A stretch of DNA of 60,629 bases. Source: Methanobacteriaceae archaeon (GTDB lineage Archaea; Methanobacteriota; Methanobacteria; Methanobacteriales; Methanobacteriaceae). The stretch spans positions 1 to 60,629 of the forward strand of contig JAUNXU010000001.1 in assembly GCA_030539615.1 (NCBI GenBank), written 5' to 3'. The notes under the pieces are model-generated. The model searched no databases, was not told where the DNA came from, and was given only the letters and a program-made list of their open reading frames with translations. Position numbers and translations under genes: made by a program. Position 1 is the stretch's first letter; the number at the start of each line of letters is the position of its first letter. This document shows positions 48,236 through 60,629 of this stretch, piece by piece.

Positions 48236-49012
48236 TTATTTTAAAATTTTTTCTAACTTGTTATTATAAATTGAATAATCTTTATCTGTAAATACATTAA
48301 ATATAATATGTTCTATTTGATTATAATCTAAATATTCATTTATTGTTTTTATAGCAATTGTTGCTGCTTTATCATTTGGAAAATTAAATGCACCTGTTGA
48401 AATACATGGAAATGCAATAGATGACAATTTATTTTCTAACAAAGTATCTAAACATGATTTATAACAATTTACTAATTGTTCACATTGATACTTAGTTAAT
48501 TTATCAGTAATATTTGGTCCTACTGTATGAATAATATATTTACAAGGTAAATTATATCCTTTTGTAATTTTTACCAAGCCTATTTTTTCTAAATGACCCT
48601 GTTTTTCAATAATTTTATTACAATCATCTCTTAATTGTATTCCTGAAGCAGAATGAATTTCATTGTCAATACACATATGATTAGGATCCCTACAACCAAG
48701 TAACTTATTATTTGCTGCATTAACAATTGCATCAATTTTAAGTCTAGTAATATCACCTTTCCATAATGAAATTTTATTTGTTGATTTAATCTCTTTTAAA
48801 TTCACTATTTTCTTTTGGATAGTTTCATAAGTTAAAAGAGAATCTTGAACTTTAATAAGTTCTTCATTATAAGGAATTGGTGGTCTAATATTCATTAAAC
48901 CACGTAGTAATTCACGTTTTTTAGTATAATCTTTAGGAATAGTAATATCTGTTATGAATTTTTCTTCTAAAAATGCATTAATTAAAAAATCTATTTTTTC
49001 ATTGTTATTCAT
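48236..49012 (-). CDS. Macrodomain ADP-ribosylhydrolase, Zn-Macro type
   Basis: GDIT, DAIVNAAN, GCRDPNHMCID, HTVGP, FPCISTGAF. Confidence 0.92.
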   Translation of the reverse strand: MNNNEKIDFLINAFLEEKFITDITIPKDYTKKRELLRGLMNIRPPIPYNEELIKVQDSLLTYETIQKKIVNLKEIKSTNKISLWKGDITRLKIDAIVNAANNKLLGCRDPNHMCIDNEIHSASGIQLRDDCNKIIEKQGHLEKIGLVKITKGYNLPCKYIIHTVGPNITDKLTKYQCEQLVNCYKSCLDTLLENKLSSIAFPCISTGAFNFPNDKAATIAIKTINEYLDYNQIEHIIFNVFTDKDYSIYNNKLEKILK

Positions 49013-52838: not shown

Positions 52839-53915
52839 ATGAGTATTGCAAAATTAGCATTAGAAGATGGGACAATATTAATTGGTGAGGGTTTCGGAGC
52901 AAAAACAACACATTCTGGAGAAATTGTATTTTCAACATCAATGACTGGATATGTTGAAGCATTAACAGATCCATCATATAAAGGACAAATATTAATGGCT
53001 ACTTATCCATTACAAGGAAATTATGGAGTATCTCATGATTGGTTTCAATCAGAAGATGTTAAAGTAGAGGCATTTGTAACAAGACAAATATGTTATAATC
53101 CAACACATCACAAATCTGAAATATCATTACCAGATTTTCTTAAAGAAGAAGGAATACCTGGAATTAGTGGAATAGATACTAGAAAATTAACTTTAAAAAT
53201 TAGAGAACATGGATCTATGAAAGCAGCAGTATCAACAGAAGATATTAGTGATGAAAAACTATTAAAAATTGTAAATGATCAAGAAAATCTTCAAGATATG
53301 CAATTAGTAAAAGATTTAACAGTAAAAGAACCAAAGATTTTTAATGAAAATGGGAAATATACCATTGCTTTAATTGATTGTGGTGTAAAATATAATATGA
53401 TAAATGAACTTGTAAAACGAGACTGTAAAGTAATACAAGTACCTTCATCAATAACATCTGAGGAATTATTATCTTATGGGATAGATGGTGTAATGTTATC
53501 TAGTGGTCCTGGAAATCCTGAAAATGTTGACAATGTTCAAGAAACAATAAAATCCATATCTGACAAAGTACCAATATATGGTATTTGTCTTGGAATGCAA
53601 ATAATTGCATTAGCTCATGGAGCAACAACATATAAAATGAAATTTGGACATAGAGGATCAAATCAACCTGTTAAGAATGTAACTACTGGTAAAGTTAGTA
53701 TAACTTCTCAAAATCATAGTTTTGCAATTGATAAAGATTCTTTAGAAGGTACTGGTTTTGAAATAACTCATGTTAATTTAAATGATGGAACTCCTGAAGG
53801 ATTAAAACATGAAACATTACCAATAGCATGCATGCAATACCATCCTGAAGCAGGACCTGGACCTCATGATACTAAAATATTCTTTGATGATTTTTTAAGT
53901 AATATGGATAAGTAA
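52839..53915 (+). CDS. carA: Carbamoyl-phosphate synthase small subunit
   Basis: LTDPSY.GQ, SGPG.P, GICLG, QYHPEA.PGP. Confidence 0.97.
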   Translation: MSIAKLALEDGTILIGEGFGAKTTHSGEIVFSTSMTGYVEALTDPSYKGQILMATYPLQGNYGVSHDWFQSEDVKVEAFVTRQICYNPTHHKSEISLPDFLKEEGIPGISGIDTRKLTLKIREHGSMKAAVSTEDISDEKLLKIVNDQENLQDMQLVKDLTVKEPKIFNENGKYTIALIDCGVKYNMINELVKRDCKVIQVPSSITSEELLSYGIDGVMLSSGPGNPENVDNVQETIKSISDKVPIYGICLGMQIIALAHGATTYKMKFGHRGSNQPVKNVTTGKVSITSQNHSFAIDKDSLEGTGFEITHVNLNDGTPEGLKHETLPIACMQYHPEAGPGPHDTKIFFDDFLSNMDK

Positions 53916-54062: not shown

Positions 54063-54334
54063 TTATTTTTTTTTAGGTTATGACTTTTTTTGAGTTAATA
54101 TTTTATGGTAAATATTATAATTGACTTTATTTAGTTAATTTCAAGGCTTGTTCAAAAAATTATAATAATCAATTTAAATAGATTAAATAACATAATTAAG
54201 TATACGAAAGATAATAGATTATAATATATGAATAGTATTATTAATAGAAAAAAATTTACAAGAGACATGGAAAAAAACAATATAACTAAAACAGATAGTA
54301 TTTTTTTTATTAATATATGGGGAGTGAAATTGTA

Positions 54335-57300
54335 ATGGTTTTTAATAATGAGGGTGCATATGTGGAATTTTTAACAGGGCGTAAAAACAGTGATAATAAA
54401 AATAATAATTATATAAAATTTAATATAGATAAAGATTTAAAATCTACAATAAATTCTTTAAAAACTACTGAAAAGATTAATCAAAATATCATATACCTTA
54501 GTACTTTTTTATTAATGATTCATAGATATACTCGAACTGAAGACCTTGTTATTGGTATTGATGATAATAAAATTTCAAGCACTATTGAAGTAGTACTTGA
54601 TAATAATAAAACATTTGCTGAGTTATTACAAGAAGTTAATACTATTTATAAGACTATTACTGAAGATTCAAATAATAATACATCTCAAAATATTAATGTA
54701 CTTTTTGTTAATGATAAAAACTATTTAGATAATCCTAATATTGATCTTGTATTAAATGTTGGTATAGCTGATGATTTAACTTTAGTATATTCTGAAGGTC
54801 TTTTTGAATGGAATACTATGAAATACATGGTTGAACATTATAAAACTTTATTAAAAAATTGTGTTTCAAATCCAGATACTATATTAACTGATTGTAGTAT
54901 GTTGTCTGATGAAGAATTAGATTTAATACTTAATAAATTCAATGATTATACTGCAGATATTCCTGAGGGAACTACTGTTATTAGTTTATTTGAGCAAATG
55001 GTCAAAGAAAATCCTGATAGTATAGCAGTACTATTTGAAGATGATAAATTAACATATGAAGAATTTAATAAAAAAGTTAATAGTTTTGCACATAAACTTC
55101 GTGATTTAGGAGTTAAACCTGATGATCGTGTGTGTATATTTGTTAAACGTAGTATTGAAATGATTATTGGAATGTTTGCAATACTTAAAGCTGGTGGAGG
55201 TTATGTTCCTTTAGATCCAACATATCCAAAGACTCGTATTGAATATATATTAAATGATTCAGAATCAAAAGTAATTTTAAGTCATAGTGAAGTGGATATG
55301 GATTTAACTCCATGGGATATTCCTGTATTAAATTTATTTGATGAATCAAATTTTAATGGAAATACAGAAAATCTTCCTAAAGTAAATAAACCTACAGATT
55401 TATGTTATATTATATATACATCAGGTACTACAGGTAATCCTAAAGGAGTAATGTTAGAACATAGAAATATTGTTAATTATGCTTATGCTAATGATGGAGT
55501 TTATGGATTAGTAAAAGGTGATCGTGTATTACAATTTGCAAATGTTGTATTTGATGTTTCTGTTTCAGAAACTCTTAATCCATTAATGCTTGGTGCTACA
55601 ATAGTATTAGTTTCACAAGATAAAATATTAGAACCCCGCAAATTAGCAAAATATTGTGCTGATAAAAAAGTAACCGTAGCTCAATTTACACCACAATATT
55701 TCAATAATATTAATGTAAAAATACCAAAAATAATGACTTCAGGTGATGCTGCTTCAAAGAAAACTCTTAATCAAGTACCAGCAGATAGTACTTATATAAA
55801 TTCCTATGGTCCTACAGAAACAACAATTATTTCTACTTACTGGAAATATGATAAAGACAAAAGAGTACCTGAAAATATTCCTGTAGGAAAACCAATAGTT
55901 AATGTTCAATTTTATATATTAAATGAAGGTAAATTATGTGGTATTGGAGTTCCAGGTGAAATATGTACTGCTGGTGAATGTGTAGCTAGAGGATATAGGA
56001 ATATGCCTGAATTAACAGAGAAATCATTTGTTGATAATCCTTATGGTGAAGGTAAATTATATCATACAGGAGATTTAGGTGAATGGAGATCTGATGGTAA
56101 TCTTTTATGCTTTGGACGTATAGATGATCAAGTTAAAATTAGAGGTTTCAGAATAGAATTGGGTGAAGTTGAAAGTAGGTTAGTTGAAATACCTGAAATT
56201 GGTAAAGCTGCAGTAACAACTATTAAAGGAACAACAGATGAACTTGCAATTTGTGCATATTATACATCTAAAACAGGTAAATTAGATACTAATAATATTG
56301 AAAAACAACTATTAAAAACATTACCTGAATATATGATTCCATCATATTATATGCAATTAGATGAAATGCCATTAAATCATAATGGTAAAATTAGTAAGAA
56401 AGATCTTCCAAAAATGGAAGTTACAAGTTCACAAGATTATGAACCACCTTCTAAAAAATCAGAAAAATTATTAGTAAATGCTTTTGAAAATATTTTAGGA
56501 GTTAAAAAAGTAGGTTTAAATGATAGTTTCTTCCAATTAGGTGGGGATTCTATTAAAGCTATTAGAATTACTTCTTATATTCAACAAAAAGGGCATAGTT
56601 TAACTGTTAATGATATAATGAAAGGCAAAATAGTTAAAGATATTGCAAAAAAAATTGTTAAAGAAAAATTAGAATTTGAAGAACAGGAAAAAATTACAGG
56701 AGAAGTATTATTAACTCCTATAGAATATCATTTCTTTAATCAAAAACTAGAGAATCCTAATTATTATAATCAATCACAATTACTAAGTTCAGATGATAAA
56801 TTGTCATATGAAACTATTGAAAAAATATTTGATAATCTAGTTTTACATCATGACATGTTAAGAGCATATTATCCTGAAAATAAACAAATAATTAGATCAA
56901 ATACAGATAATATTTATAAATTAACTGAATATGATATTGAAAATACTGATGAAATTGATAGTTTAGCAGAAAAACTACAAGAAAGTTTAAATATTAATGA
57001 AGGTTCATTAATAAAAGTAGGATTATTCCATACAAGTTCAAAAGATTATCTTTTTATTGTAATGCACCATTTAATAATTGATGGTATATCTTGGAGAATA
57101 TTAAAAGAAGATATAGAAACAATATATTCTCAAATAAAAAATAATAAAAAGATTAAATTACCATATAAATCTAATTCATTTAAAAAATGGGCTAATATTG
57201 TTGATAAATATAGTACTAGTTATCAATTAAAAAAGCAAATACCATATTGGCAAACAGTAATAAGTAAAATATCTGATGGAAATTTACCTAAAAAAGATGT

Positions 57301-59314
57301 TAATACAGTTACCTGGAATAAAGAATCAATATTATTAGATGAAACATATACTAAATTATTGTTAAATGATATTTCAAAAGCATATAATACTGAAATAAAT
57401 GATATATTATTTAGTGCATTTATATTAGCAGTATATAATGTTACCAAACAAAATAAACTATCTGTAGTATTAGAAGGACATGGTAGGGAACAAATAGTTC
57501 CTAATATGAATATTAATCGTACTGTAGGTTGGTTTACAAGTCTTTATCCAGTAATATTTGAAAACATTGATGATTCAATAAAAAATACAATTATAAATAT
57601 TAAAGAAACATTAAAACAAATTCCTCAAAAAGGTATAAGTTATGGAATGCTTCAACAAAAAGGTTTCATAGAAGAACAAATTCCTGATTTAGCATTTAAT
57701 TATCTAGGAGAATTTGGAGAAGAAGATTCAATATCTAATTATCAAATATCAAATATACCTCATGGAAATAAAATTAATTCATATAATAAAATATTTACAG
57801 CTATGGCATTAAGTTCATATACTATGAATAAAAAATTCAAAGCTAGTTTAAAATATAATCAAGATAAATACGATCCACAACTTATAAAAGAGATTATAAA
57901 TCAATTTAAACAGGAATTAATGAATATAATTGATCATTGTAAAAATATTGAAACACCAATAAAAACAGTATCAGATTATAGTGATACCACAGTATTAACA
58001 CAAGAAGAATTTAATACAATAGAAAAAAGAATAGTTGATCAAGGGCATGAAATAGAACGAATTTATTCATTAACACCAACACAAGAAGAAATGTTAAGAT
58101 TCACTTTAAATCATCCTGAAAGCTTTCCATTTACTGTTCAGAAATATTATGAAATACAATCAGATATTAACATAGATATATTTAAAGAATCATTAAAACT
58201 TTTAACTAAAGAACATGATATTTTAAGAACAGATATAGTATATAAAGATTTAAATGTACCAGTGCAAATAGTATTAAAAGAAAAAGAGATTCCATTTGAA
58301 TTTATAGATTTAACAAATAAGGTTAATGTTGAAGAAGAACTTCTTAAAATAAAGCGTGCAGAGTTTTATAAAGGATTTGATATAGAATATGAACCATTAA
58401 TTAGAATGACACTTGTAAAAATCGGTGAAAACTGTTATCAAATAATAGGTACAATGTATCATATCATAATGGATGGTTGGACAATATCAATATTATTCAA
58501 TGATATAGCAAAATATTATGAAGCACTTATAAAAAATAAAGAAATAAAAATTGAAACCGATAAATATGAAGAATATGTTCAATATTTAGATGAACAAGAT
58601 AAACAAGAAAATTTAGATTATTGGAAAAATTTATTAAAAGGATATCATCACAAAATTGAAATACCAACAACAGGTGTAAAAGATAAACCAGAAGAACCAA
58701 TAGATAATATAAAATATAATGTATCAGAATACACATTTAAAAAACTTAAAGAGCTAGCAAAAAACAATGATGTAACAATAAATACAGTATTTGAAGCAAT
58801 ATGGAGTATATTATTGCAAAAATATAATAATACAAATGATGTAGTATTTGGAAAATTAGTATCTGGAAGAAATATACCATTAGAACATATTGGTGAAAAA
58901 ATAGGAACATTTATAAATACAGTACCTGTAAGGGGAAAAACAAAACCTGGAGAAACATTTATAGACTTAATAAATAATATACAAAATCAAGCAATTGAAT
59001 CAAATAATCATGATACAGTTTCACTATTGGATTTAGAAGATAGTATTGGTATGGATGATAATTTAATTACAACATTATTTGTATTTGAAAATTATTATAG
59101 GCATAAAACTGGAAATGATACTATTGAATTATTACCAAGAGGAACTTTAGAAGAACGTAAATATGATATAAGTTTTAATATAAGACAAAAAGATACATTA
59201 GAATTAATGATATTATATAAAACAAGTAAATATACTAGAAAAGATATTGAAAATATTATTGAAAATTTAAAAGATATAATAGAAAATATACTAACAAGAG
59301 TATATTTAACATAA
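54335..59314 (+). CDS. Monomodular non-ribosomal peptide synthetase: partial C - A - T - E - C
   Basis: A domain: YTSGTTGNPKG, YGPTE, YHTGD, QVKIRGFRIELGE, NGK; T: LGGDSI; E: HHLIIDGISW, EGHGRE, RTVGWFT, FNYLGEF; C: YHIIMDGWT, IGTFINTVP; ATG 54335 after GGGGAGTGA (ORF track starts at 54317). Confidence 0.95.
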   Translation: MVFNNEGAYVEFLTGRKNSDNKNNNYIKFNIDKDLKSTINSLKTTEKINQNIIYLSTFLLMIHRYTRTEDLVIGIDDNKISSTIEVVLDNNKTFAELLQEVNTIYKTITEDSNNNTSQNINVLFVNDKNYLDNPNIDLVLNVGIADDLTLVYSEGLFEWNTMKYMVEHYKTLLKNCVSNPDTILTDCSMLSDEELDLILNKFNDYTADIPEGTTVISLFEQMVKENPDSIAVLFEDDKLTYEEFNKKVNSFAHKLRDLGVKPDDRVCIFVKRSIEMIIGMFAILKAGGGYVPLDPTYPKTRIEYILNDSESKVILSHSEVDMDLTPWDIPVLNLFDESNFNGNTENLPKVNKPTDLCYIIYTSGTTGNPKGVMLEHRNIVNYAYANDGVYGLVKGDRVLQFANVVFDVSVSETLNPLMLGATIVLVSQDKILEPRKLAKYCADKKVTVAQFTPQYFNNINVKIPKIMTSGDAASKKTLNQVPADSTYINSYGPTETTIISTYWKYDKDKRVPENIPVGKPIVNVQFYILNEGKLCGIGVPGEICTAGECVARGYRNMPELTEKSFVDNPYGEGKLYHTGDLGEWRSDGNLLCFGRIDDQVKIRGFRIELGEVESRLVEIPEIGKAAVTTIKGTTDELAICAYYTSKTGKLDTNNIEKQLLKTLPEYMIPSYYMQLDEMPLNHNGKISKKDLPKMEVTSSQDYEPPSKKSEKLLVNAFENILGVKKVGLNDSFFQLGGDSIKAIRITSYIQQKGHSLTVNDIMKGKIVKDIAKKIVKEKLEFEEQEKITGEVLLTPIEYHFFNQKLENPNYYNQSQLLSSDDKLSYETIEKIFDNLVLHHDMLRAYYPENKQIIRSNTDNIYKLTEYDIENTDEIDSLAEKLQESLNINEGSLIKVGLFHTSSKDYLFIVMHHLIIDGISWRILKEDIETIYSQIKNNKKIKLPYKSNSFKKWANIVDKYSTSYQLKKQIPYWQTVISKISDGNLPKKDVNTVTWNKESILLDETYTKLLLNDISKAYNTEINDILFSAFILAVYNVTKQNKLSVVLEGHGREQIVPNMNINRTVGWFTSLYPVIFENIDDSIKNTIINIKETLKQIPQKGISYGMLQQKGFIEEQIPDLAFNYLGEFGEEDSISNYQISNIPHGNKINSYNKIFTAMALSSYTMNKKFKASLKYNQDKYDPQLIKEIINQFKQELMNIIDHCKNIETPIKTVSDYSDTTVLTQEEFNTIEKRIVDQGHEIERIYSLTPTQEEMLRFTLNHPESFPFTVQKYYEIQSDINIDIFKESLKLLTKEHDILRTDIVYKDLNVPVQIVLKEKEIPFEFIDLTNKVNVEEELLKIKRAEFYKGFDIEYEPLIRMTLVKIGENCYQIIGTMYHIIMDGWTISILFNDIAKYYEALIKNKEIKIETDKYEEYVQYLDEQDKQENLDYWKNLLKGYHHKIEIPTTGVKDKPEEPIDNIKYNVSEYTFKKLKELAKNNDVTINTVFEAIWSILLQKYNNTNDVVFGKLVSGRNIPLEHIGEKIGTFINTVPVRGKTKPGETFIDLINNIQNQAIESNNHDTVSLLDLEDSIGMDDNLITTLFVFENYYRHKTGNDTIELLPRGTLEERKYDISFNIRQKDTLELMILYKTSKYTRKDIENIIENLKDIIENILTRVYLT

Positions 59315-59880: not shown

Positions 59881-60394
59881 CCATATTTAAATACTTTTTT
59901 TTTAAAAAATAAGATTTTTAAGTTAATAATTTGGATTATATGGTGGCACATTATTTAAATAATAAAACAATAAAAATAAAATATAGAGGAAAAAAAGGGA
60001 TTAATAAAAATAATAAAATACACCATATATGTGTTTATTATTTTTTTAGAAGGATCTTTTTTATGACCTCTACTTAAATAGATCTATTTAGGAATTATCA
60101 ATTATTCAGTAAAATATACATGCCTTATTAACAAAGATCTAAAAAAAAGATACAATAAAAAAAAATAATATAAGTGATCACAAAAAAAGATATCCTTTTA
60201 TACAAAAAAACACAACAAAAAAAGAGAGAATAAAAAAAAATATTTATAAAAATAATAAACACTTATATTAAACTCAGGAATAATTTCTAAAATATAAAAC
60301 AAAACACGAAACAAACTATACAAAAAATATGAGAAAAATTATATATAAAAAAAATTCTCAAAAAAAAAGAATATAATAAAATGGAGGAAAAAGT

Positions 60395-60629
60395 ATGAAT
60401 AGTAAAAAAATACTATTAATCGCAAGTACACTGTTTGTCTTAGTAAGTTTAACAGCAATATCAGCTACAACAACCGACAACACTGACAACACAACAACCG
60501 ATACACCAACAACTACAACAACAAACACACCAACAACTACAACAACAAACAATAAAAAATTAGCAAGCGTAGAAACTGGTGGTGGAAAAACAGCACAAAC
60601 AACAACTGCACAAGTATCAAACAAAGCAA
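60395..60629 (+). CDS. Adhesin-like surface protein, 5' part (partial)
   Basis: GGAGG SD; MNSKKILLIASTLFVLVSLTAISA signal peptide then Thr-rich linker; frame open to window end. Confidence 0.85.
   Translation, partial: MNSKKILLIASTLFVLVSLTAISATTTDNTDNTTTDTPTTTTTNTPTTTTTNNKKLASVETGGGKTAQTTTAQVSNKA
60503..60550 (+). repeat. 2 x 24-bp perfect tandem repeat in adhesin linker
   Basis: ACACCAACAACTACAACAACAAAC twice (TPTTTTTN). Confidence 0.9.

What the first reader, a model, noticed from the sequence alone, without database searches (positions are those of the whole stretch)
54335..59314. Stand-alone archaeal NRPS with an epimerase and a terminal condensation domain (A-T-E-C, no TE)
Seen: complete A-domain core motifs, a GGDSI carrier site, a full set of E-domain motifs and a final C domain whose catalytic His is retained (YHIIMDG). 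There is no thioesterase, reductase or second module, and no PPTase, exporter or tailoring gene in the window. Established: NRPSs are rare in archaea and reported mainly from gut Methanobacteriales; GGDSI is typical of carriers upstream of E domains; pseudomurein peptides use L-amino acids. Inference: the enzyme activates one L-amino acid, converts it to D and condenses it onto an external acceptor such as an amine, a carrier protein in trans or a surface glycan/lipid. That would be an undescribed D-aminoacyl transfer system in a methanogen, loosely like Dlt-type surface modification.
Basis: partly seen in the sequence, partly recalled or inferred. Interest (0 to 1): 0.9.

Follow-up and report, generated by a model that had tools for sequence, protein, structure and literature searches.

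The report
Lone D-amino-acid-making synthetase in methanogen
A methane-producing archaeon (Methanosphaera) carries one intact, bacterially derived, single-module peptide-synthetase gene with no partner in its assembled genome; it likely flips one L-amino acid to the D-form and releases it, as a known fungal enzyme of the same layout does, which would be unexpected in a cell whose wall uses only L-amino acids.

Summary
The gene is real and intact (54335-59314). Its layout is a truncated C-lobe, then A-T-E and a terminal DCL-type C domain. All catalytic motifs are present. It holds the only carrier, E and C domains in this 94%-complete Methanosphaera assembly. An intact Sfp-type PPTase lies on another contig. 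No thioesterase, MBOAT or free carrier was found. Codon use is native, and the gene sits where congeners have carB. No orthologue was found; the best relatives are Firmicutes NRPS modules at 35-43%. The E domain keeps 60 of 61 conserved columns. The C domain keeps 40 of 46, and its changes cluster at the predicted acceptor-carrier face; it also lacks the tail of split assembly-line subunits. The layout is not undescribed: fungal IvoA (A-T-E-C) inverts L-Trp and releases D-Trp by hydrolysis. Best reading: an independently derived IvoA-like L-to-D stereoinvertase (0.33). Close rival: a D-aminoacyl-amide synthetase with a free amine acceptor (0.27). A Dlt-like surface system is unlikely (0.05). 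NRPSs are common in this family (82 of 251 genomes), and E domains occur in 10 of 329 Methanobacteria genomes. The substrate is unknown, there is one assembly only, and there are no expression data.

The parts
54335..59314 (+). Single-module NRPS gene, C*-A-T-E-C, 1659 aa (in-frame upstream ATG at 54317 gives 1665 aa)
54320..54327 (+). Shine-Dalgarno-like GGGAGTGA 7 nt before ATG 54335
   Evidence: sequence
54380..54925 (+). Truncated C-terminal lobe of a condensation domain (C*), with two internal deletions like those in N-terminal stubs of Firmicutes and other methanogen NRPS subunits; no active site
   Evidence: PF00668 profile 217-276 and 404-454; TIGR03443 N-terminus E 2e-8; alignment
54959..56431 (+). 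Adenylation domain; pocket code DVSQMSSIIK, substrate not predictable
56468..56650 (+). Thiolation (carrier) domain, GGDSI at 56540-56554; only carrier found in the assembly
56684..57991 (+). Epimerization domain; keeps 60 of 61 highly conserved columns
58055..59296 (+). Terminal DCL-type condensation domain, complete fold, catalytic H1382/D1386/R1518 kept, no C-terminal tail
58088..58099 (+). Remodelled helix-1 acceptor face: Gly to Glu1258 at the inferred tunnel gate, Phe/Tyr to Arg1261 at the inferred carrier-docking patch
   Evidence: positional mapping to PMC8097023 by motif register
58457..58480 (+). Active-site motif YHIIMDGW (first His replaced by Tyr)
52839..53915 (+). carA (context only): followed directly by carB in 22 of 23 congeners, by the NRPS here

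Best explanation
The gene encodes an intact, partnerless single-module NRPS that likely works as an ATP-driven, one-way L-to-D amino-acid converter, in the manner of fungal IvoA but built independently from a Firmicutes module. Shown: domain order, intact motifs, sole carrier/E/C domains in the assembly, an intact Sfp-type PPTase elsewhere, native codon use. Inferred steps: (1) the PPTase on contig C75 primes the T domain; (2) A activates an unknown L-amino acid and loads T; (3) E equilibrates L and D; (4) the terminal DCL-derived C domain, whose acceptor-carrier face appears remodelled, selects the D-thioester and releases it to a small free nucleophile, most likely water, giving the free D-amino acid. 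Substrate and biological use are unknown.
For: Same single-module A-T-E-C layout as IvoA, whose E inverts and whose terminal C hydrolyses the D-aminoacyl thioester (passages of PMC10720950 and PMC11546977; primary paper not seen). It needs no partner, acceptor supply or tailoring gene, and none was found. E keeps 60 of 61 columns that are at least 90% conserved (median of 91 homologues 98%), T 10 of 10, A 87 of 94. About 6% of single changes would give a stop, so ~1% neutral divergence would break the frame with 95% chance; the gene is ~60% diverged from all relatives yet open. C keeps 40 of 46, the lowest against 98 homologues, with localised change: z -5.7 at 1260-1279 and -4.6 at 1600-1619, most other windows near 0. 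Among 283 internal DCL-like domains, position 1258 is Gly in 265 and Glu in at most 1, position 1261 is never Arg, and the first His is never Tyr. PMC8097023 places these two helix-1 positions at the acceptor-tunnel gate and the carrier-docking patch (mapped by motif register). Release-type terminal C domains also vary at the first His: fungal CT has Ser, AneB has Gln. The C fold is predicted intact (pLDDT 90.6, TM 0.88 to TycB C). No Asp/Glu or Ala racemase was found in the assembly.
Against: No D-aminoacyl-tRNA deacylase was found in this assembly. DTD1 is in 14 of 23 congeners but not here, and DTD2 is in 0 of 24. Free D-Tyr/D-Trp/D-Asp would be expected to be toxic without one (recalled), although the assembly is 94% complete. 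Hydrolytic release by C domains is described as rarer than cyclisation. No dedicated exporter lies beside the gene. Several C changes fit AT-biased drift (GAA, TAT, AGT codons). The E-versus-C contrast is modest and post hoc (Fisher p 0.04; A versus C p 0.35). Four congeners (70-95% complete) keep a PPTase with no NRPS hit, so the PPTase does not prove use. There is one assembly, no orthologue and no dN/dS.
Confidence: 0.33

Rival explanations
1. Stand-alone D-aminoacyl-amide synthetase: steps 1-3 as above, but the terminal C condenses the D-aminoacyl thioester with a free small amine (for example tyramine, agmatine, GABA or a gut amine), giving a small signalling or antagonistic amide.
For: Bacterial terminal or free C domains take free amines: RXP Cterm (phenylethylamine, tryptamine, tyramine, agmatine), GdnB C13 with putrescine, where acidic pocket residues were implicated, and VibH. 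Fungal A-T-C single modules take free acceptors. The C domain has four new Glu at conserved columns (1258, 1299, 1574, 1613). The genome encodes MfnA, glutamate decarboxylase (2 of 24 genus genomes) and pyruvoyl arginine decarboxylase. A capped carboxyl would avoid tRNA mischarging, fitting the missing DTD.
Against: The C domain also has four new basic residues, so the net change is not acidic. No amine-supplying gene or exporter is linked. The only characterised single-module A-T-E-C found in my searches hydrolyses. The mapping of GdnB pocket residues onto this protein was not done.
Confidence: 0.27
2. Relic: a remnant of a larger Firmicutes-type assembly line whose C domain, or whole gene, has recently come under relaxed selection.
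For: Found in no other genome or protein collection searched. The C domain has the lowest conservation against 98 homologues. Longest terminal branch in the A tree (1.43 against a median of 0.74). Orphan PPTases occur in congeners.
Against: 5-kb open frame in a 25%-GC genome. All catalytic residues kept. Ends exactly after the last C-domain helix, with no downstream remnant. GC3 and codon adaptation are native (27th and 75th percentile of 979 ORFs). The N-terminal stub is a natural feature of NRPS subunits. Change in C is local, not uniform.
Confidence: 0.15
3. One subunit of a C|A-split assembly line (polymyxin/pelgipeptin type) whose partner gene is missing from the assembly.
For: C*-A...C is the form of such subunits (P0030, P0097, P0161, P0162; PlpD/E/F layout in PMC3479019). 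The assembly is 94% complete in 139 contigs.
Against: No other T, C, E, TE or NRPS-type A fragment in six-frame searches. Flanks are carA and an adhesin-like gene start. Split subunits that end in DCL keep the gate Gly and carry a tail of about 25-35 residues, often acidic; this protein has neither.
Confidence: 0.1
4. Head-to-tail self-pairing: the C of one copy condenses its D-aminoacyl donor with the L-aminoacyl carrier of a second copy, giving a D-L dipeptide that leaves as a diketopiperazine.
For: The protein carries both ends of a C|A split (C* stub and terminal C). A Glu at the gate could attract an aminoacyl ammonium, and Arg1261 could bind the pantetheine phosphate, as nearby Arg residues do in solved complexes.
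Against: Hydrophobic docking residue lost (0 of 283 internal DCLs have Arg there); no tail; no precedent found in my searches.
Confidence: 0.08
5. Dlt-like envelope modification: the D-aminoacyl group is transferred to a lipid, glycan or pseudomurein precursor.
For: C domains can acylate non-peptide acceptors. The cell has a glycan-peptide wall.
Against: No MBOAT and no free carrier. DltA models score 269 against 560 and 283 against 476. Pseudomurein peptide stems use only L-amino acids (PMC10117817). No envelope genes adjacent. Not found in 23 congeners that share the wall type.
Confidence: 0.05

Closest known systems
IvoA of Aspergillus nidulans (Hai, Jenner, Tang 2019; seen only through passages of PMC10720950 and PMC11546977)
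   Same: Single-module A-T-E-C NRPS with no thioesterase; E inverts, terminal C releases the D-product.
   Different: Here the terminal C is a Firmicutes DCL-type domain in an archaeon, with an N-terminal C-lobe stub. Substrate and release chemistry are untested. No sequence comparison with IvoA could be made, and no fungal A-T-E-C protein was among the top listed hits.
Terminal or free C domains that take free amines: RXP Cterm (PMC9872161), glidonin C13 (PMC10587159), VibH
   Same: Chain release by a C domain without a downstream carrier.
   Different: Those act after multi-module or multi-subunit lines and without an E in a lone module; acceptor use is not shown here.
C|A-split Bacillota NRPS subunits (pelgipeptin PlpD/E/F, PMC3479019; homologues P0030, P0097, P0161, P0162)
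   Same: Subunits that begin at A and end in C; the homologues show the same N-terminal C-lobe stub; likely evolutionary source (35-43% identity to Firmicutes NRPSs).
   Different: They work in clusters with partners, keep the acceptor-gate Gly and have C-terminal tails; this gene is alone, with a changed acceptor face and no tail.
Methanobrevibacter ruminantium NRPSs mru0068 and mru0351 with PPTase mru0514 (PMC2812497, PMC8024701)
   Same: NRPS plus unlinked Sfp-type PPTase in a Methanobacteriaceae genome; the PPTase here is 45-52% identical to those of related methanogens.
   Different: Those are multimodular, reductase-ended and MATE-linked. Their A domains form a separate clade (about 33-38% identity), so this gene is likely an independent acquisition.
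Dlt system (DltA-DltC-DltB/D)
   Same: A-domain activation and a phosphopantetheinyl carrier.
   Different: Dlt activates D-Ala directly, uses a free carrier and an MBOAT, and has no E or C domain (recalled); none of those parts was found here.

Membership tests
NRPS (type I module) | A domain with core motifs fused to a carrier with the Ser motif | tested here: met
NRPS (type I module) | Sfp-type PPTase available in the genome | tested here: met
   G000:C75:2026-2682, PF01648 + PF22624, conserved motifs
Epimerization domain | HHxxxD and EGHGRE motifs, TIGR01720 over cut-off, GGDSI carrier upstream | tested here: met
DCL condensation domain | Follows E; closest to DCL-type structures; catalytic His/Asp/Arg | tested here: met
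   (subtype labels of PDB entries recalled)
DCL condensation domain | Canonical acceptor face (gate Gly, hydrophobic helix-1 patch) and a downstream carrier | tested here: not met
   Glu1258, Arg1261, no second carrier
IvoA-type stereoinvertase | Single-module A-T-E-C, no thioesterase | tested here: met
IvoA-type stereoinvertase | Terminal C hydrolyses the D-aminoacyl thioester selectively | not testable with these tools
   needs an enzyme assay
IvoA-type stereoinvertase | Orthology to fungal IvoA | not tested
Amine-accepting terminal C (RXP/GdnB/VibH type) | Condenses a free amine | not testable with these tools
   charge changes in C are mixed, 4 acidic and 4 basic
C|A-split NRPS subunit | Partner subunits in the cluster or genome | tested here: not met
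   none in a 94%-complete assembly
C|A-split NRPS subunit | C-terminal tail after the C domain | tested here: not met
mru0068/mru0351-type methanogen NRPS | Several modules, terminal reductase, adjacent MATE | tested here: not met
Dlt system | DltA over cut-off, free carrier, MBOAT | tested here: not met

The most novel reading that the evidence does not exclude
A Methanosphaera lineage took a D-residue module from a Firmicutes antibiotic assembly line and re-tooled its C domain into a release enzyme that joins the D-amino acid to a biogenic amine such as tyramine, agmatine or GABA. That would be an archaeal one-gene route to D-amino-acid amides, made by a cell whose L-only wall would be indifferent to them, and possibly aimed at bacterial neighbours or the host.
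Probability: 0.25. Interest if true: 0.75.

Novelty: new variant of a known kind. Interest (0 to 1): 0.5.

Why it matters
The papers read state that the products of the known methanogen NRPSs are unidentified (PMC8024701, 2021). This enzyme has one module and needs no partner, so it could be assayed whole in vitro and would give a direct test of what an archaeal NRPS makes. If it inverts and releases an amino acid, it would be a prokaryotic, convergent counterpart of fungal IvoA and a source of D-amino acid in an organism with an L-only wall and no Asp/Glu or Ala racemase found. It would also be a natural case of a DCL domain turning from chain extension to release, which bears on NRPS engineering. 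Interest is held back because it is a single gene in one assembly, the layout has a precedent, and NRPSs are common in this family.

Tried and rejected
Orthologue searches, all without a close relative: whole protein, E-end/C region, shorter proteins, metagenome contigs (37 pattern hits, 0 confirmed), genome contigs (31 hits, 1 confirmed at 35% over A-T only), 1.8 billion representatives with the N-terminal 238 aa (only long multimodular NRPSs), ESM Atlas (generic NRPS clusters). dN/dS could therefore not be computed. Sequencing runs: none was listed; this says nothing on expression. A staphylopine-like link to the nicotianamine-synthase gene beside the PPTase was rejected: it is convergent, present in 15 of 23 congeners, and none of those 15 loci (1.5 kb flanks) showed a PPTase start beside it. 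Truncation at the 5' end was rejected because the C-lobe stub matches natural N-terminal stubs. A decayed downstream module was rejected because no remnant was found (best 25 bits). Contamination or a chimeric join is unlikely: native GC3 and codons, archaeal-type genes on both sides, no mobile-element repeats seen. PF07993 gave 8 matches in 295-363-aa frames, too short for NRPS modules; they were not examined further. The bacterial sigma-70 promoter scan was uninformative (4 found, 5.9 expected). The tree lacked the archaeal rows by my error and was an unfinished quick tree; it is used only for branch length, and one search replaces it. Substrate prediction failed: the code matches the Dab code of PMC3479019 at 5 of 10 positions (both side-chain acids lost) and its Phe code at 3 of 10, while the nearest A domains by identity carry Phe-like codes. 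Literature searches for TycB1 R62 and for code strings gave nothing usable. No complex prediction was run.

Full report
Observation. The window is contig C17 of a 1.80-Mb, 94%-complete, 25%-GC assembly. Proteins of three same-genus genomes are labelled Methanosphaera. The ORF 54317..59314 is open for 1665 codons. Numbering below counts from 54317. Pfam and NCBIfam give A, T, E and C in that order, with the A and E models over cut-off, and all named motifs were located. E matches solved E domains at 250-265 bits. The last domain matches TycB, BacC and SrfA-C C domains at 206-240 bits and the TycC didomain at 93 bits, so it is DCL-type (subtype labels recalled). Its model is a complete C fold (pLDDT 90.6; TM 0.88 to TycB C). 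It aligns with the N-terminal stubs of ten bacterial and three methanogen NRPS proteins, so it is likely a natural module start, not fresh damage.

Is it alone? In the assembly the only carrier, C and E matches are in this gene, also with my own HMMs on a six-frame translation. No thioesterase, MBOAT or MbtH protein was found. The three other AMP-binding proteins are 490-560-aa proteins of acyl-CoA-ligase size (one was scanned). One Sfp-type PPTase lies at C75:2026-2682 after MarR and MATE genes, with intact motifs and 45-52% identity to methanogen PPTases. In the genus, all 7 of 23 congeners with a strong NRPS A hit have a PPTase, and 4 more have a PPTase without one, so the PPTase is consistent with use but does not prove it. 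carA is followed by carB in 22 of 23 congeners (the other locus ends at a contig end). Here the NRPS follows carA and carB starts contig C107. The 1.1 kb downstream holds no module remnant, and an adhesin-like gene starts at about 60393 (by eye).

Origin and selection. No orthologue was found. Best identities are 41% for the whole protein, 39% for the C region and 43% for fragments, mostly Bacillota NRPSs. The protein's cluster has one member on one contig. Contig scans gave no close relative. An E-domain query hit 0 of 23 congeners and 36 of 313 family genomes, with strong hits at 35% or less. In FastTree trees the A domain (61 rows) and E domain (42 rows) fall with bacterial sequences (support 0.955 and 0.967), apart from the archaeal clades. 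Bacterial rows were chosen for similarity to the query, one contig of G222 also falls among them, and no root or clade test was run, so the direction of transfer is inferred. GC, GC3 and codon adaptation are at the 22nd, 27th and 75th percentile of 979 ORFs. About 6% of single changes would create a stop, so roughly 1% neutral divergence would break the frame with 95% chance. The gene was therefore under selection until at least very recently.

The terminal C domain. Of columns at least 90% conserved in homologues, E keeps 60 of 61, T 10 of 10, A 87 of 94 and C 40 of 46, the lowest against 98 homologues. The E-versus-C contrast is modest and post hoc (p 0.04; A versus C p 0.35). The change is local: windows 1260-1279 (z -5.7) and 1600-1619 (z -4.6, partly a gappy stretch) stand out, four others reach about -2.5, and the rest are within 2 SD; the worst A and E windows are -3.3 and -2.4. 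H1382, D1386 and R1518 are kept. Among 283 internal DCL-like domains, position 1258 is Gly in 265 and Glu in at most one, 1261 is Phe/Tyr/Leu/Ala in all 283 (Arg here), and the first His is never Tyr. By motif register, 1258 matches the acceptor-tunnel gate (R2577 in FscG, Gly in 80% of DCL domains) and 1261 the hydrophobic carrier-docking residue L2580 (PMC8097023; passages and part 1 of section 6). Bacterial split subunits that end in DCL keep the Gly (10 of 12 terminal domains, some of them cut records) and have tails of about 25-35 residues, while this protein stops after its last helix. This fits a domain that no longer takes a carrier-bound acceptor. It does not identify the nucleophile: four new acidic and four new basic residues appear, and some changes also fit AT-biased drift.

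Substrate. The pocket code is DVSQMSSIIK. The nearest A domains (46-52%) have codes such as DASTIAAVSK and DAWTIAAVCK, the latter near the Phe code in PMC3479019. The query shares only 3 of 10 positions with that Phe code and 5 of 10 with the Dab code, whose two acids it lacks. The substrate cannot be called.

Mechanism. The only characterised single-module A-T-E-C found in ten literature searches is fungal IvoA. Two papers (passages) describe it as inverting an L-aromatic amino acid and releasing the D-form by C-domain hydrolysis. One review text says tyrosine, but the cited title says tryptophan; I did not see the primary paper. That logic needs no partner, fits the near-perfect E domain and the altered acceptor face, and no Asp/Glu or Ala racemase was found in the assembly. 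I put it at 0.33. Against it, no D-aminoacyl-tRNA deacylase was found here, although 14 of 23 congeners have DTD1. A free-amine amide synthetase is nearly as likely (0.27). Precedents are RXP Cterm, glidonin C13 and VibH (passages), and the genome has tyrosine, glutamate and arginine decarboxylases, none linked to the gene. A recent relic (0.15), a missing partner (0.10), self-pairing to a diketopiperazine (0.08) and Dlt-like envelope acylation (0.05) follow.

Comparison and novelty. Methanogen NRPSs were reported in 2010 (PMC2812497, passages), and their products were still unknown in 2021 (PMC8024701, passages). They are common in this family: 82 of 251 genomes have an A domain over cut-off. 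E domains are not unique either: 10 of 329 Methanobacteria genomes match TIGR01720. Six of these have E before a thioesterase-like end (Pfam-confirmed for G163), five beside recognised ATP-grasp-like genes. G025 has a 5'-cut protein ending A-T-E-C whose last C is only 24% identical over 195 aa. My searches found no report of an archaeal E-containing or C-terminated NRPS, but the library lacks most subscription papers and no supplements were read. Pseudomurein stems use only L-amino acids (PMC10117817, passages). Other papers seen as passages: PMC10510592, PMC11546977, PMC8857579, PMC8949500, PMC13532921 and PMC7530659; the last three added nothing.

Verdict. This is a new variant of a known kind: an intact, partnerless, Firmicutes-derived A-T-E-C module in one Methanosphaera lineage, likely making a D-amino acid or its amide. 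Interest 0.5: easy to test and biochemically curious, but a singleton with a fungal precedent.

Noticed in passing
G163:C1:1575000-1590000 (L114); G152:C336 (L118); G294:C82 (L115); G281:C23 (L116); G243:C74 (L117); G267:C69 (L121, L122): A separate methanogen NRPS family ending A-T-E plus a thioesterase-like domain, with intact E motifs, one to several modules, beside ATP-grasp-like genes (three in tandem in G163); predicted to make D-residue peptides. Not seen in the papers read.
   Followed up: partly
G025:C96:3-4322 (L024); G025:C159 (L108); G108:C4:3411-6386 (L106): Genomes of another genus of the family (one protein labelled Ca. Methanovirga) carry NRPSs that end in a divergent C domain, including a 991-aa A-T-C protein next to an MFS transporter and a 5'-cut A-T-E-C protein.
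   Followed up: partly
window 52839-53915 and G000:C107:309-3503: The carA-carB pair, adjacent in 22 of 23 congeners, is split in this genome.
   Followed up: yes
G000:C57:18076-19353 (L174, L195): Glutamate decarboxylase (TIGR01788 over cut-off), found in only 2 of 24 Methanosphaera genomes.
   Followed up: partly
L188-L193 (G018, G010, G016, G006, G004, G019): Bacterial-type D-aminoacyl-tRNA deacylase DTD1 is in 14 of 24 Methanosphaera genomes, while the archaeal DTD2 was found in none.
   Followed up: no
G000:C75:2683-3495 (L025): Nicotianamine-synthase-family gene convergent with the PPTase; present in 16 of 24 genus genomes in varied neighbourhoods.
   Followed up: partly
L039, L040, L034, L036 (G008, G010, G011, G014): Sfp-type PPTases in congeners with no NRPS A-domain hit (70-95% complete assemblies); orphan enzymes or missing contigs.
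   Followed up: no
P0096 (protein cluster): A 2480-aa Firmicutes-type C-A-T-C-A-T protein labelled Methanosphaera sp. by its source; 46% to this A domain; may be misbinned or a second transfer.
   Followed up: no
G222:C45 (L113): NRPS contig in a 64%-complete family member that groups with Firmicutes sequences; possible contamination.
   Followed up: no
window 48236-49012 -: Macro-domain (ADP-ribose-binding) protein between cbiJ and a P-type ATPase.
   Followed up: no
window 60393-60629 +: Start of a secreted adhesin-like protein with Thr-rich repeats, cut by the contig end.
   Followed up: no
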